Origin: the human T2T-CHM13v2.0 reference genome, Homo sapiens
Reading direction: 5' to 3'
DNA: 64,000 nucleotides
Assembly (NCBI GenBank): GCA_009914755.4
Contig: CP068257.2
Coordinates: forward strand, 17,792,001 to 17,856,000
Under the pieces are notes generated by a model that was given only the letters and a program-made list of their open reading frames with translations, made no database searches and was not told the DNA's origin. The position numbers were made by a program, and so were the translations under genes. How positions within the stretch are numbered: position 1 is the stretch's first letter; each line of letters opens with the position of its first letter. Positions 44,551 through 49,394 of this stretch are shown one piece after another.

Positions 44551-44933
44551 GTATATTAGTTCATCCTCATGCTGCTACAAAGAATTGTCCAAGATTGGGT
44601 AATTTATAAAGGAAAGAAGTTTAACTGACTCACAGTTCTGCATGGCTGGGGAGGTCTCAGGAAACTTACAACCATAGCAGAAGGGGAAGCAAACACATCC
44701 TTCTTCACATGATGGCAGGAAGGCAAAGTGCCCAGCAAAAGGGGCAAAGCCACTTATAAAACCATCAGACCTCATGAGAACTCAATCACTATCATGAGAA
44801 CAGCAGCATAGGGGCAACCACCCCATGATTCAATTATCTCTCAGGCCCTGCTCACAACACATGGGGATTATGGAAACTACAATTCAAGCTGACATTTGGG
44901 TGAAGATACAGCCACATCGTATCATTCCTCCTC
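44551..44933 (-). mobile_element. MST-like MaLR element 'X': 3' LTR (minus orientation)
   Basis: 'gtatattagttcatcctcatgctgctacaaagaattgtccaagattgggtaatttataaaggaaagaagtttaactgactcacagttctgcatggctggggaggtctcaggaaacttacaaccatagcagaaggggaagcaaacacatccttcttcacatgatggcagg...ggggattatggaaactacaattcaagctgacatttgggtgaagatacagccacatcgtatca'. Most similar to the LTR at 49065..49394. Confidence 0.8.
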
Positions 44934-46436
44934 TGGCCCCTCCCAAATTTCACATTCTCACATTTCAAAACACAATCTTCCCTTTCCAAAGATCCCCCAA
45001 AGTCTGAGCTCATTCCAGCATCAGCCCAAAATTCCAAGATTTCATCTAAGACAAGGCAGGTATCTTTCACCTACGAGCCTGTAAAATCAAAAGCAAGTTA
45101 GTTACTTCAGAGATACAATGTGGGTACAGGCACTGGGTAAATACACCAGTTCCAAATGGGAGAAATTGGCCAAAACAAAGGGGCTACAGGCCCCAGGCAA
45201 GTCCAAAATCCAATAGGGCAATCATTAAAACTTCAAGTTCCAAAATGATCCCCTTTGACTCCATGTCTCACACCCATGGCACACTGATGCAAAAGGTGGG
45301 CTCCCATGGCCTTGGGCAGGTCTGATCCTGTAGCCTGGTAGGGTAAAGCCTCGCTTCCTGGCTGCTTTCATAGGCTGGCGTTCAGCATTTGTAAGCTGTT
45401 GGTAGATCCACCATTCTGGGGGTCTTGAGGATGATGGCCTTCTTCTCACATATCCACTAGGCAGTGCCCCAGTGGGGACTCTGTTTGGGGGCTCCAACCC
45501 ACATTTCCCTTCTGAACTGGCCTAGCAGAGGTTCCCCATGAGGGATTTGCCCCTGAAGTAAACTTCTGCCTGGACATCCAGGCATTTCCATACATCCTCT
45601 GAAAATATAGGCAGAGGTTTCCAAACCTCAATTCTTGTCTTCTGTTCACCCACAGGCCCAACACCATGTGGAAGCTGCCAAGGCTTGGGACTTGCACCCT
45701 CTGAAGCAATAGCCTGAGTTGTACATTGGACCATTTTAGCTGCAGCTGGATCAGCTGTGGTGCAGGGCACCAAGTCCCAAGGCTGTATACAGCAGAGTGA
45801 CCCTAAACCTGGCCCAGCAAACCATGTTTCCCTCCTGGACTTGCGGGCCTATGTTGAGAGAGGCTGTTGTGAAGGTCTGTGACATGCCCTGGAGACATTT
45901 TCCCCATTGTTTTGATGACTAACATTTGGGTCCTCACTACTTATGCAAATTTCTGCAGCCGGCTTGAATTTCTCCCCAGAAAATTGGGTTTTCTTTTTTT
46001 ATCACATAATCAGGCTGCAAACTTTCCAAACTTTTATGCTTTGCTTCCTCTTGAATGCGTCTCACTTAGAAATTTATTTCGCCAAATATCCTAAATCATC
46101 TCTCTCAAGTTCAAAGATCTACTGATATCCAGCGTGGGCAAAATGCTTCCAGTCTCTTTGCACATAGCAAAAGTAACTTTTACTCCAGTTCCCCAAAAGT
46201 TCCTCATCTCCTTCTGAGACCATATCAGCCTGGACACCATGGTCCATATCATTTTGATCAAACTATTCAACAAGTCTCTGTGAAGTTGCAAACTTTCCCA
46301 CATTTTCCTGACTTCTGAGCCCTCCAAAATGTTCCAACCTCTGCCTGTTACCCAGTTCCAAAGTTAGTTCCACATTTTTGAGTGTCTTCACAGCAGTGCC
46401 CCACTCTCTGTGGTACCAATTTACTGTATTAGTTTG
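44934..46436 (-). mobile_element. MaLR element 'X': complete internal region (THE1/MST-int, about 1.5 kb, non-coding gag-like remnant)
   Basis: Reverse complement of the recalled THE1-int consensus across its length, ending at the canonical int/LTR junction '...cagcagtgccccactctctgtggtaccaatttac|tgtattag'. The minus-strand ORFs at 45225..45773 lie inside it. Confidence 0.8.
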
Positions 46437-46743
46437 TTCTCAAGCTGCTATAGAAAACTGCTCGAGTCCAGGCACAGTGGCTCATGCCTATAATCCCAGC
46501 ATTTTGGGAGGCCAAGGCAGATCACTTGAGGTCAGGAATTTGGAACCAGCCTGGCCGACGTAGCAAAACCCTGTCTCTGCTAAACACACAAAAATTAGCC
46601 TGGTGTGGTCATGCAGATGTGTAATCCCAGCTGCTCAGGAGGCTAAGGCAAGAGAATCACTTGAATTTGGGAGACAGAGGTTGCAATGAGCCGAGATTGC
46701 ACCACTGCACTACAGCCTGGGGTGACAGGGCAAGACTCCGTCT

Positions 46744-46782
<39 letters not shown>

Positions 46783-46792: not shown

Positions 46793-47140
46793 AGACTGGA
46801 TATATTAGTCCATTTTCTGTTGATAAAGAAATATCTGAGATGGGGCAATTTAAAAAAGAAAGAGGTTTAATAGACTCACAGTTCCACATGGGTGGGGAAG
46901 CCTCACAATCATGGTGGAAGGTGAAAGGCAAGTCTCACGTGGTGGCAGACAAGAGAAGAGAGATTGTGCAAAGAAACTCTCCTTTTTTAAAACCATCAGA
47001 TCTCATGAGACTTATTCACTATCATGAGAAAAGCAGAGAAAGACCTGCCCCCATAATTCAATTACCTCCTAATGGGTTCCTCCCACAATATGTGGGAATT
47101 CAAGATGAGATTTTGTTGGGGAAACAGCCAAACCAAATGA
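46793..47140 (-). mobile_element. THE1-like MaLR element 'Y': 3' LTR
   Basis: 'atatattagtccattttctgttgataaagaaatatctgagatggggcaatttaaaaaagaaagaggtttaatagactcacagttccacatgggtggggaagcctcacaatcatggtggaaggtgaaaggcaagtctcacgtggtggcagacaagagaagagag...tgggaattcaagatgagattttgttggggaaacagccaaaccaaatga'. It shares the 'gggaattcaagatgag' deletion variant with the LTR at 48720..49064. Confidence 0.75.
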
Positions 47141-48719
47141 TCTGCCCCTGGCCACTCCAAAATCTCATGTCCTCACATTTCAAAATGAATTATGCCTTCC
47201 CAACAGTCCCCCAAAGTCTAACTCATTTCAGCATTAACAGAAAAGTCCACAGTCCAAAGTCTCATCTGAGACAAGTCAAGTCCCTTGCAGCTATCAGCTT
47301 GTAAAATCAAAAGCAAGTTAGCTACTTCCTAGATATAATGAGAGTAGAGGCATTGGGTAAGTACTGCCATTTGAAAGGGTAGAAATTGGCCAAAACAAAG
47401 GGGTTATAGGCCTCATGCAGGTTCGAAATCCAGAGGGGCAGTCACATATTAAAACTCCAAAATGATCTCCTTTGACTCCATGTCTCACATCCAGGTCACG
47501 CTGATGCAAGAGGTGGGTTCCCATGTTCTGGCACAACTCCACCCCTGTGACTTTGTAGGGTACAGCCTTCCTCTCAGCTGCCTTCACAGGCTGGCACTGA
47601 GCATCTGTAGCTTTTACAGGCACAGGTTGGAAGCTGTCAGTGGACCTGCCATTCTGGGGTCTGGAGGACAGTGGACCTCTTCTTACAGCTCCAGTAGGTG
47701 GTGCCCCAGTAGGGACTCTGTGTGGGGGCTCTGACCCTACATTTCCCTTCTGCACTGCCCTGGCAGAGGTTCTCCATGAGGGCCCCACCCCTGCAGCAAA
47801 CTTACACCTGGGTATCCAGACGTTTCCATACAACTTCTGAAATCTAGGCGGAGGTTCCCAAATGCCAATTCTTGACCTCTCTGCACTGGCAGACTCAACA
47901 CCACATGGAAGCTACCAAGGTTTGGGGCTTGCACTCTCTGAAACCATGAGCCAAGCTCTACACTGATCCCTTTCAGCCATGACTGGAGTAGCTGGGACAC
48001 AGGGCACAAAGTACCTAGACTGCACACAGCACAAAGACCCTGGGCCTGTCCCAGAAAACCACTTTTTCCTCATAGGCCTCCTGGCCTGTGATGAGAGGGG
48101 CTGCCATGAAGACTTGTGAGATGCCCTGGAGACATTTTCCCCATCGTCTTGGGGATTTACATTCTGCTCCTCATTGCTTATGCAAATGTCTGCAACTGGT
48201 TTGAATTTCTCCTCAGAAAATGGGATATTCTTTTCTATTGCAATGTCAGGCTGCAAATTTTCAGAACTTTATGCTCTGCTTTCCTTATAAAACTGAATGC
48301 CTTTAACAGCACCCAAGTCACCTGTTGAATAGTTTGCTGCTTAGAAATGTCTTCCACCAGATACCCTAAGCTATCTCTCTCAAGTTCAAGTTCCACAAAT
48401 CTCTAGGACAAAGGCAAAATGCCACCAGTCTCTTTGCTAAAACATAACAAGAATCACCTTTGCTCCAATTCCCAACAAGTTCCCCCTCTCCGTCTAAGAC
48501 CACCTCAGCCTGGATTTCATTGTCCATATCATTATCAGAATTTTGGTCAAAGCCATTCAACGACTTAAGTCTCTAGGGAGTTCCAAACTTTCCCACATTT
48601 TCCTGTCTTCTTCTGAGCCCTCAAACTGTTCCAACCTCTGCCTATTACCCAGTTCCAAAGTCACATCCACTTTTTTGGGTATCTTTATAGAGTGCCCCAC
48701 TCCCAGTACCAACTTACTG
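47141..48719 (-). mobile_element. MaLR element 'Y': complete internal region (THE1-int)
   Basis: Collinear with the X internal region 44934..46436 at roughly 80% identity, for example 'gcttgtaaaatcaaaagcaagttagctacttcctagatataatgagagtagaggcattgggtaag...' vs 'cctgtaaaatcaaaagcaagttagttacttcagagatacaatgtgggtacaggcactgggtaaa...'. It ends at the canonical junction '...agtgccccactcccagtaccaacttac|tgtattagtcc'. The minus-strand ORFs at 47318..48256 lie inside it. Confidence 0.8.
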
Positions 48720-49064
48720 TATTAGTCCATTTTCACACTGCTGATAAAGACATACCTGAGACTGGGCAATTAAAGAAAAAAAAAAGAAGTTTAATTGACT
48801 TACAGTTCCGCATAGCTAGGGAGGCCTCACAATCTTGGCAGAAGGTAAAACACACGTCTAACATGGAGGCAGACAAGAGAAGAGAGCTACTGCAGAGAAG
48901 CTCCCCTTTTTTAAAAACCAGCAGATCTCATGAGACTTATTCACTATCACGAGAACAGCAGGGAAAGACCTTCCCCATGATTCAACTACCTCCCACTGGT
49001 CCCTCCCAAAACACGTGGGAATTCAAGATGAGATTTTGGTGGGGACACAGCCAAACCATAACAC
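48720..49064 (-). mobile_element. MaLR element 'Y': 5' LTR
   Basis: 'tgtattagtccattttcacactgctgataaagacatacctgagactgggcaattaaagaaaaaaaaaagaagtttaattgacttacagttccgcatagctagggaggcctcacaatcttggcagaaggtaaaacacacgtctaacatggaggcagacaagagaagagag...tgggaattcaagatgagattttggtggggacacagccaaaccataaca'. Confidence 0.8.
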
Positions 49065-49394
49065 TGTGTAATTTAGAAAGGAAAGAGGTTTAATTGACTT
49101 ATAGTCCTGTATGGCTGGGGAGGCTTCAGAAAACTTATAATCATGGCAGAAGGGGAAGCAAACACGTCCTTCTTCATATAATGGCAGGAATGAGATGTGC
49201 CAATTAAAAGAGGAAAAGAAGTTTATAAAACCATCAGATTTCATGAGAACTCACTCACTATCATGAAAACAGCATGGAGGTAACTGCCCCTATGATTCAA
49301 TTATCTCCCACCAGGTCCCTCCCACAACATATGAGGGTTATGGGAACTACAATTCACAATGAGAGTTGGGTGGGGACACAGCCAAACCATATCA
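49065..49394 (-). mobile_element. Outer about 330 bp of element X's 5' LTR (lacks its inner ~55 bp, which sits at 46437..46792)
   Basis: 'ctgtgtaatttagaaaggaaagaggtttaattgacttatagtcctgtatggctggggaggcttcagaaaacttataatcatggcagaaggggaagcaaacacgtccttcttcatataatggcagg...gggttatgggaactacaattcacaatgagagttgggtggggacacagccaaaccatatca'. Closest to LTR 44551..44933 ('...cagaaggggaagcaaacac.tccttcttca.at.atggcagg...'). Confidence 0.7.

What the first reader, a model, noticed from the sequence alone, without database searches (positions are those of the whole stretch)
44551..49394. Apparent LTR-int-LTR-int-LTR MaLR structure is better explained as a THE1-like element nested in the 5' LTR of an older MST-like element
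Read along the plus strand, the region is a head-to-tail array, all minus-oriented: LTR (44551-44933), 1.5-kb internal region, LTR (46437-47140, split by an Alu), a second 1.5-kb internal region about 80% identical to the first, LTR (48720-49064), then a 5'-clipped LTR (49065-49394). Superficially this is a tandem duplication sharing a middle LTR. The LTRs pair by sequence the other way. The outermost LTRs resemble each other ('...ggaaacttacaa.cat.gcagaaggggaagcaaacac.tccttcttca...'). The two inner LTRs resemble each other ('...cctcacaatc.tgg..gaaggt.aaa...ggcagacaagagaagagag...gggaattcaagatgagattttg...' with a shared internal deletion). The ~52 bp missing from the inner end of the outer 5' LTR is found at 46437..46464 plus 46777..46792, directly abutting the first internal region. 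The parsimonious history has three steps. First an MST-like element X inserted. Then a THE1-like element Y (46793..49064) inserted about 55 bp from the inner end of X's 5' LTR. Later an Alu inserted into the displaced 52-bp LTR piece with its own ~10-bp TSD. This gives three generations of nesting in under 5 kb.
Basis: partly seen in the sequence, partly recalled or inferred. Interest (0 to 1): 0.5.

Follow-up and report, generated by a model that had tools for sequence, protein, structure and literature searches.

The report
One MaLR retrotransposon nested inside another
This 4.8-kb stretch is an old, decayed primate LTR retrotransposon (MaLR) whose 5' LTR was later hit by a second MaLR of a different lineage and by an Alu, which is an ordinary, already catalogued kind of "transposon in transposon" arrangement.

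Summary
Corrected boundaries are given under parts. Gapped alignment pairs the outer LTRs with each other (K2P 0.234) and the inner LTRs with each other (0.166). Cross-pairs are 0.32-0.37. Informative sites split 33: 5: 3 and bootstrap support is 2000/2000. The inner pair alone shares a 15-bp deletion. The piece missing from the outer 5' LTR lies next to internal region 1 (46425-46466 plus 46789-46800). It overlaps the clipped LTR (49064-49394) by exactly 5 bp, the MaLR target-site-duplication length. The outer element has its own 5-bp duplication (AGAAG/ATAAG). The Alu has a 13-bp one. A tandem duplication sharing a middle LTR is rejected.

Three caveats apply. The Alu and the inner element are two separate hits in the outer LTR, so nesting is two deep, not three, and their order is unresolved. 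The names MST and THE1 could not be tested against a repeat library.

Published counts list 3,207 exact MaLR-in-MaLR and 18,537 Alu-in-MaLR nestings in the human genome. The case is therefore ordinary, of low interest and already known.

The parts
44547..44551 (.). Left copy of the 5-bp target-site duplication of the outer element X (AGAAG)
   Evidence: It is AGAAG immediately before LTR A and ATAAG immediately after LTR D, a 4/5 match. 5 bp is the MaLR TSD length (PMC2836564).
44552..44924 (-). A: 3' LTR of the outer MaLR element X (373 bp, MST-like lineage)
   Evidence: It is 80.5% identical (K2P 0.234) to the reconstructed X 5' LTR, against 71-72% to B and C. It carries the 9-bp and 15-bp segments that B and C lack.
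44925..46424 (-). Internal region of X (1500 bp). It has a purine-rich tract next to A and a PBS-side junction ...ACCAATTTAC|TGTATTAG next to the 5' LTR piece.
   Evidence: It is 77.6% identical to internal region 2 along its whole length. There are no ORFs above 90 aa and no Pfam hit.
46425..46466 (-). P1: inner end of X's 5' LTR (TGTATTAG...CTCGAG). Its last 13 bp (46454-46466, AAAACTGCTCGAG) are the left copy of the Alu TSD.
   Evidence: It starts with the canonical LTR end directly after internal region 1 and aligns to positions 1-38 of A.
46467..46776 (+). Alu SINE, AluS-like, opposite in orientation to the MaLRs, with a pure A32 tail at 46745-46776
   Evidence: One search shows the A32 run. 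One search shows about 10 other Alu copies in the window matching at 69-77%.
46776..46788 (.). Right copy of the Alu TSD (AGAACTGCCCGAG)
   Evidence: It matches AAAACTGCTCGAG at 46454-46466 at 11 of 13 positions. One difference lies at a CpG.
46789..46800 (-). P2: continuation of X's 5' LTR (ACTGAGACTGGA). It includes a 6-bp extra repeat (GAGACT). Its last 5 bp (46796-46800, CTGGA) are the left TSD copy of the inner element Y.
   Evidence: P1 plus P2 align to A positions 1-48. CTGGA aligns to A's TTGGG.
46801..47140 (-). B: 3' LTR of the inner MaLR element Y (340 bp, THE1-like lineage)
   Evidence: It is 85.2% identical to C (K2P 0.166). It shares the 9-, 7- and 15-bp gaps with C.
47141..48717 (-). 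Internal region of Y (1577 bp)
   Evidence: It is uninterrupted and collinear with internal region 1. The longest ORF is 171 aa and there is no Pfam hit.
48718..49063 (-). C: 5' LTR of Y (346 bp)
   Evidence: It starts TGTATTAG directly after ...ACCAACTTAC and ends ...CCATAACA.
49064..49394 (-). D: the rest of X's 5' LTR (331 bp). Its first 5 bp (49064-49068, CTGTG) are the right TSD copy of Y.
   Evidence: It aligns to A positions 44-373 (BLAST 80.2%, E 8.7e-83). The 5-bp overlap with P2 falls on the same LTR positions.
49395..49399 (.). Right copy of X's TSD (ATAAG)

Best explanation
The region records three separate retrotransposition events in a primate genome, and all the products are now decaying neutrally.

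1. A full-length, non-autonomous MaLR element X integrated in minus orientation into TA-rich low-complexity DNA. X has 373/380-bp LTRs and a 1.5-kb internal region. Its LTRs carry the extra 9-bp and 15-bp segments seen in the MST-like lineage. Integration made a 5-bp duplication (AGAAG/ATAAG).

2. A second full-length MaLR, Y, from a different, THE1-like lineage integrated in the same orientation into X's 5' LTR. Y is 2,263 bp with 340/346-bp LTRs and spans 46801-49063. The insertion point is 48/49 bp from the LTR's inner (PBS-side) end. It duplicated 5 bp of the LTR, ancestrally about CTGGG and now CTGGA and CTGTG.

3. Independently, an AluS-like SINE inserted in the opposite orientation by L1-mediated target-primed reverse transcription. 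It landed in the 49-bp LTR stub left next to X's internal region, 12 bp from Y's edge. It made a 13-bp duplication that begins with AAAA.

What is shown: the pairing of the LTRs, the exact complementarity of the two halves of X's 5' LTR, the three TSDs, and the fact that Y is uninterrupted while X is interrupted.

What is inferred: mobilisation of MaLRs in trans by ERVL-type enzymes, the L1 origin of the Alu insertion, the approximate ages, and the absence of present function.

The order of events 2 and 3 is not determined.
For: - LTR pairing. K2P is 0.234 for A against the reconstructed X 5' LTR and 0.166 for B against C. All four cross-comparisons are 0.324-0.374.
- Tree support. Informative sites are 33 for (A,X)(B,C) against 5 and 3 for the other topologies, with bootstrap 2000/2000. 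There is no mosaic pattern along the LTR.
- Source divergence. The internal branch between the two pairs is 0.156 (95% CI 0.10-0.22). The two source copies therefore already differed by about 15% when they inserted. That is in the range of published MSTA-THE1B/C consensus distances (0.164).
- Indels. The 15-bp deletion is found only in B and C among seven MaLR LTRs in the window. The 9-bp segment is shared by A, Xrec and a third LTR (L37k) and is absent from B, C, L25k and L30k.
- Junctions. P starts with the canonical LTR end directly after internal region 1. P's last 5 bp and D's first 5 bp align to the same five positions of A.
- TSDs. X has AGAAG/ATAAG and the Alu has an 11/13 match. 5 bp is the MaLR TSD length. 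Exact MaLR-in-MaLR (3,207) and Alu-in-MaLR (18,537) nestings are common in the human genome (PMC2836564).
- Published order. Transposon-in-transposon analysis places all THE1 members after all MST members (PMC10735291).
- Age order. d(B,C) is below d(A,X) in 96% of bootstraps, consistent with the inner element being younger.
Against: - Y's TSD matches at only 3 of 5 positions, though each copy is one step from CTGGG.
- The 54-bp piece P cannot on sequence alone be assigned to X's lineage rather than Y's. It matches A at 34/48 and C at 36/48, and informative sites within it split 3: 3. Its assignment rests on position.
- Transversions alone give B-C 0.065 against A-X 0.046, which is the opposite order though not significant. 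LTR divergence therefore supports the age order only weakly.
- X's 5' LTR piece carries an unexplained 6-bp extra repeat next to the junction.
- Subfamily names were not checked against a repeat library.
Confidence: 0.93

Rival explanations
1. This is a tandem provirus. One MaLR element was duplicated by unequal homologous recombination between its 5' and 3' LTRs, giving LTR-int-LTR-int-LTR with a shared middle LTR.
For: All parts are head to tail in one orientation, and the two internal regions are collinear over their whole length. At first glance there appear to be three LTR blocks.
Against: There are four LTR segments, not three. The middle block is a 54-bp LTR stub plus a complete LTR, and a clipped LTR follows C directly. 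A groups with D, not with B (bootstrap 2000/2000). Cross-pair LTR distances (0.32-0.37) exceed within-pair distances (0.17-0.23). The int1-int2 distance (0.273) exceeds both within-pair distances. B and C share three indels that A and D lack. A duplication would leave no 5-bp duplication around B...C.
Confidence: 0.02
2. These are coincidentally adjacent independent insertions. On this view a 5'-LTR-truncated element (A-int1-P), a separate full element (B-int2-C) and an unrelated 5'-clipped solo LTR (D) happen to lie side by side.
For: The window is dense in MaLR LTRs (three more solo LTRs in the same orientation) and in Alus, so chance adjacency of repeats is not rare.
Against: P ends and D begins on the same five LTR positions, an exact 5-bp overlap out of about 380 possible offsets. 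D is the closest relative of A in the window (80% against 71% or less for any other LTR). A and D are flanked by a 4/5 matching 5-bp duplication. Three coincidences would be needed.
Confidence: 0.03
3. The whole array entered in a single integration as a chimeric cDNA, made by template switching between two co-packaged MaLR RNAs during reverse transcription.
For: The two elements share orientation, and the junction lies close to the LTR/PBS boundary, where strand transfers happen.
Against: Y is bounded by complete LTR ends and by a 5-bp duplication of X's LTR sequence, which is the signature of integrase-mediated insertion into existing DNA. The LTR pairs have different divergences (0.234 vs 0.166). 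A recombinant cDNA would not duplicate 5 bp of the host LTR on both sides.
Confidence: 0.01

Closest known systems
Transposon-in-transposon (TinT) nesting of ERVL-MaLR elements in primate genomes (Levy et al. 2010, PMC2836564; Zuo 2023, PMC10735291)
   Same: A younger MaLR is inserted exactly into an older MaLR with a 5-bp TSD, and an Alu sits in a MaLR LTR. The direction of nesting (THE1-like into MST-like) is the one expected from the published activity order.
   Different: Nothing differs in kind. Both elements are still full length, whereas most copies are solo LTRs, and both insertions fall within 12 bp of each other in the last 50 bp of one LTR.
THE1 (transposon-like human element) full-length copies
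   Same: Y is 2,263 bp with 340/346-bp LTRs and a roughly 1.6-kb internal region without long ORFs. From memory (Paulson et al. 1985), this matches the classical description of a 2.3-kb element with 350-bp LTRs. Y lacks the 9-bp segment present in the outer LTRs.
   Different: Both Y LTRs carry a 15-bp deletion and a changed TATAAA that are not seen in the other MaLR LTRs of the window. The subfamily (THE1A-D) was not determined.
Tandem proviruses sharing a central LTR (for example, from memory, tandem HERV-K proviruses formed by unequal recombination)
   Same: It has the same superficial LTR-int-LTR-int-LTR layout in one orientation.
   Different: Here the middle is a stub plus a full LTR, a fourth LTR segment follows, the LTRs pair outer with outer and inner with inner, and the inner unit has its own TSD.

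Membership tests
ERVL-MaLR LTR retrotransposon (both X and Y) | Two direct LTRs of about 350-400 bp flank an internal region of about 1.5 kb | tested here: met
   X has 373 and 380 (reconstructed) bp LTRs and a 1500-bp internal region. Y has 340 and 346 bp LTRs and a 1577-bp internal region.
ERVL-MaLR LTR retrotransposon (both X and Y) | 5-bp target-site duplication (PMC2836564) | tested here: met
   X has AGAAG/ATAAG (4/5). Y has CTGGA/CTGTG (3/5, with each copy 4/5 to CTGGG at the homologous LTR position of C).
ERVL-MaLR LTR retrotransposon (both X and Y) | LTR termini TG...CA, with a purine-rich tract before the 3' LTR | tested here: met
   In element orientation, LTRs A, C and D begin with TG and B begins with TC. 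P and C end in CA, and A and B end in TA. The purine tracts are GGGAGGGGCCAGAGGAGGAA before A and GGAGTGGCCAGGGGCAGA before B. The deviations are single substitutions.
ERVL-MaLR LTR retrotransposon (both X and Y) | The internal region has no pol or env and at most a putative gag ORF (PMC10735291) | tested here: inconclusive
   There is no ORF above 171 aa and no Pfam match at E up to 1 for seven minus-strand ORFs. This is compatible with a decayed non-autonomous element, but absence of a match shows nothing positive.
ERVL-MaLR LTR retrotransposon (both X and Y) | Significant match to Dfam/Repbase MaLR consensus or HMM | not testable with these tools
   No repeat library is available. The supplement of PMC10735291 holds only a distance table, with the alignments as images. 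Rfam gave no hit, as expected.
MST (outer) versus THE1 (inner) subfamily assignment | LTR sequence closest to the MST or THE1 consensus. From memory, MST LTRs carry the ...GTAAGTTTCCTGAGG... segment with the MstII site, which THE1 LTRs lack. | tested here: inconclusive
   A and D carry the 9-bp segment (CCTGAGA and TCTGAAG, degenerate MstII sites). B and C lack it, as do two other LTRs in the window. The inferred distance between the source copies (0.156) fits the published MSTA-THE1B/C distance of 0.164, but it also fits other pairs such as THE1D-THE1A at 0.168. The names rest partly on memory.
Tandem provirus with shared central LTR (unequal crossover) | Exactly three LTRs of one lineage, a single central LTR, and one TSD pair around the whole array | tested here: not met
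   There are four LTR segments, two lineages, an inner TSD, and A groups with D.
Alu SINE | A dimeric body of about 280 bp, a 3' A-tail, and a flanking TSD of variable length that starts in an A-rich site | tested here: met
   There is a 280-bp body, an A32 tail and a 13-bp TSD, AAAACTGCTCGAG/AGAACTGCCCGAG. It matches about 10 other Alu copies in the window.

The most novel reading that the evidence does not exclude
The inner element may represent an undescribed minor THE1 sub-lineage. It would be marked by a 15-bp LTR deletion and a mutated TATA box, both shared by its two LTRs and therefore present in the source RNA. If so, two insertions (Y and the Alu) within 12 bp in the last 50 bp of an MST LTR might mark a local insertion hotspot of the kind described statistically for nested TEs.
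Probability: 0.07. Interest if true: 0.15.

Novelty: already known. Interest (0 to 1): 0.07.

Why it matters
It matters very little beyond correct annotation. Nested insertions like this one are the raw data of TinT-type relative dating of repeat families. This locus adds one clean inner-lineage-into-outer-lineage event, which is consistent with the published order. It is also a useful worked example that an apparent LTR-int-LTR-int-LTR 'tandem provirus' should be checked by LTR pairing and TSDs before recombination is invoked.

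Tried and rejected
- Rfam scan of 44000-50000 gave no family at gathering score.
- Pfam scan of seven minus-strand ORFs from both internal regions gave no match at E up to 1, so no gag remnant was detectable.
- I looked for MaLR consensus sequences to name the subfamilies. The supplement of PMC10735291 has only a distance matrix, and the alignments are images. A second literature search found no text consensus.
- I tried to assign the 54-bp stub P to a lineage by sequence alone. It does not discriminate (71% to A, 75% to C, 68% to B; informative sites 3: 3).
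- I tried to order X and Y by LTR divergence. K2P favours Y being younger (96% of bootstraps), but transversions alone point the other way, not significantly.
- I tried to order the Alu relative to Y. Structure gives no constraint. The Alu's non-CpG divergence (10.8% from a memory-typed consensus) lies between the per-branch values of X (about 11.7%) and Y (about 8.3%), so the order stays unresolved.
- I looked for gene-conversion tracts between int1 and int2. Windowed identity is flat at 0.70-0.83, so there are none.
- I did not scan the public prokaryotic, viral or metagenome collections. They cannot supply primate orthologues.

Full report
**What is in the sequence**

Reading 44300-49700 and running a self-repeat scan show a head-to-tail set of related blocks. 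I fixed the exact ends by anchoring on the canonical LTR end motifs. On the plus strand the layout is:
- 44547-44551: AGAAG.
- 44552-44924: LTR A, 373 bp.
- 44925-46424: internal region 1, 1500 bp.
- 46425-46466: LTR stub P1.
- 46467-46776: an Alu with an A32 tail.
- 46776-46788: repeat of the 13 bp that precede the Alu.
- 46789-46800: LTR stub P2.
- 46801-47140: LTR B, 340 bp.
- 47141-48717: internal region 2, 1577 bp.
- 48718-49063: LTR C, 346 bp.
- 49064-49394: clipped LTR D, 331 bp.
- 49395-49399: ATAAG.

All MaLR parts are in minus orientation, because on the plus strand the LTRs start TGTATTAG and end CCATATCA. The Alu is in plus orientation. The largest errors are the start of the stub (46425, not 46437) and the start of B (46801, not 46793).

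**Is it more than chance?**

BLAST within the window gives E = 8.7e-83 for A against D, 1.4e-98 for B against C, and 0 for the two internal regions.

**Which LTRs pair?**

I rebuilt the outer 5' LTR as P1 + P2 + D, with one copy of the 5-bp overlap removed. I aligned it with A, B and C using MAFFT.
- K2P distances are 0.234 for A-Xrec and 0.166 for B-C.
- Cross-pair distances are 0.374 (A-B), 0.361 (A-C), 0.358 (Xrec-B) and 0.324 (Xrec-C).
- Of 332 ungapped columns, 33 informative sites support (A,Xrec)(B,C), against 5 and 3 for the alternatives. Bootstrap support is 2000/2000, and the minority sites are scattered rather than clustered, so no LTR is a hybrid.
- B and C share gaps of 9, 7 and 15 bp relative to A and Xrec.

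I then added the three other MaLR LTRs in the window, at 25370-25732, 30167-30515 and 37119-37486.
- The 9-bp segment is a lineage character. It is present in A, Xrec and L37k and absent in B, C, L25k and L30k.
- The 15-bp deletion is found only in B and C. That is what is expected if both were copied from one RNA in one reverse-transcription event.

The internal branch between the pairs is 0.156 (CI 0.10-0.22). The two source copies therefore differed by about 15% at the time of insertion. This rules out a duplication of one element. It falls in the range of published distances between MST and THE1 consensus sequences, for example 0.164 for MSTA-THE1B/C.

**The junctions**

Internal region 1 runs straight into TGTATTAG (…ACCAATTTAC|TGTATTAG), exactly as internal region 2 runs into LTR C (…ACCAACTTAC|TGTATTAG). 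Internal region 1 therefore had its own 5' LTR, and P is its inner end.

After the Alu and one TSD copy are removed, P reads TGTATTAGTTTGTTCTCAAGCTGCTATAGAAAACTGCYCGAGACTGAGACTGGA. It aligns to positions 1-48 of A, with a 6-bp extra GAGACT. D aligns to A positions 44-373.

The last five bases of P (CTGGA) and the first five of D (CTGTG) both fall on A's TTGGG, which is C's CTGGG. This is the overlap expected from a 5-bp target-site duplication, the length documented for MaLRs (PMC2836564). The two copies match each other at only 3/5, but each is one change from CTGGG.

The outer element has its own 5-bp duplication, AGAAG/ATAAG. The Alu is flanked by AAAACTGCTCGAG/AGAACTGCCCGAG (11/13). Its TSD begins with AAAA, as expected for L1-endonuclease-mediated insertion (established knowledge; also summarised).

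Y (46801-49063, 2,263 bp) is uninterrupted while X is interrupted. Y therefore entered X, not the reverse.

**Weak points**

- The stub P alone cannot be assigned to a lineage by sequence. It is 71% identical to A, 75% to C and 68% to B, and its informative sites split 3: 3. Its assignment is positional.
- K2P favours Y being younger than X in 96% of bootstraps. At 1.8-2.5e-9 substitutions per site per year, an assumed rate range, the ages are roughly 33-46 My for Y and 47-65 My for X. Transversions alone give 0.065 for B-C against 0.046 for A-X, which is not significant. Dating supports the order only weakly. The structural argument is what carries it.
'Three generations of nesting' should read: one host element with two independent insertions 12 bp apart in the last 50 bp of its 5' LTR.

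**Coding and RNA checks**

There is no ORF above 171 aa. No Pfam family matched at E up to 1 for seven minus-strand ORFs. No Rfam family matched. Each LTR holds only 1-4 CpGs. Everything fits old, neutrally decaying elements, and no present function is indicated.

**Comparison with what is known**

[quoted passage not shown] Transposon-in-transposon analysis places all THE1 members after all MST members (PMC10735291). A genome-wide survey counted 3,207 exact MaLR-in-MaLR and 18,537 Alu-in-MaLR nestings in the human genome, and described 'TE nepotism' of young MaLRs into older ones (PMC2836564). This locus is one more such case, and RepeatMasker would resolve it routinely.

The rival reading is a tandem provirus sharing a central LTR formed by unequal crossover. 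It fails on LTR count, LTR pairing, the shared indels and the inner TSD.

**Verdict**

The arrangement is already known in kind and is of low interest.

Noticed in passing
Old Alus usually have short or interrupted tails, so this tract has probably expanded by slippage and may be length-polymorphic.
   Followed up: partly
window 44552-44553, 46801-46802 vs 46425-46426, 48718-48719: Both 3' LTRs (A and B) begin TATATTAG on the plus strand. Both 5' LTR inner ends (P and C) begin TGTATTAG. The same terminal CA-to-TA change (in element orientation) has therefore occurred in the 3' LTRs of two unrelated insertions. It may be coincidence.
   Followed up: no
window 46783-46800: A 6-bp tandem repeat (GAGACT GAGACT) lies in the stub of X's 5' LTR, directly between the Alu TSD and Y's TSD. 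It is absent from the six other MaLR LTRs in the window. It is probably slippage, but its position between two insertion junctions is unexplained.
   Followed up: partly
window 46985-46996 and 48905-48920 (LTRs B and C): Both inner LTRs read TTTTTTAAAA(A)CC where the outer LTRs keep TTATAAAACC (TATAAA in element orientation). Both also share a 15-bp deletion not seen in any other MaLR LTR of the window. The source copy of Y therefore already carried these changes, and it might mark a minor THE1 sub-lineage.
   Followed up: partly
window 25370-25732, 30167-30515, 37119-37486: There are three further solo MaLR LTRs, all in the same (minus) orientation as X and Y. L25k and L30k lack the 9-bp segment (THE1-like). 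L37k has it and carries extra insertions (older, MST-like).
   Followed up: partly
window 8062-8364, 10598-10895, 13629-13906, 26118-26393, 27357-27656, 27788-28055, 34720-35018, 42234-42533, 50770-51062, 53151-53439: About ten further Alu copies lie on both strands (69-79% identical to the Alu in the finding). The window is Alu-rich primate DNA.
   Followed up: no
window 44295-44550 and 49395-49430: X is embedded in TA/CA-rich low-complexity sequence (TRF arrays at 44295-44346 and 44484-44507). The short TA-rich stretch after D continues it, which is consistent with insertion into a pre-existing simple-repeat region.
   Followed up: partly
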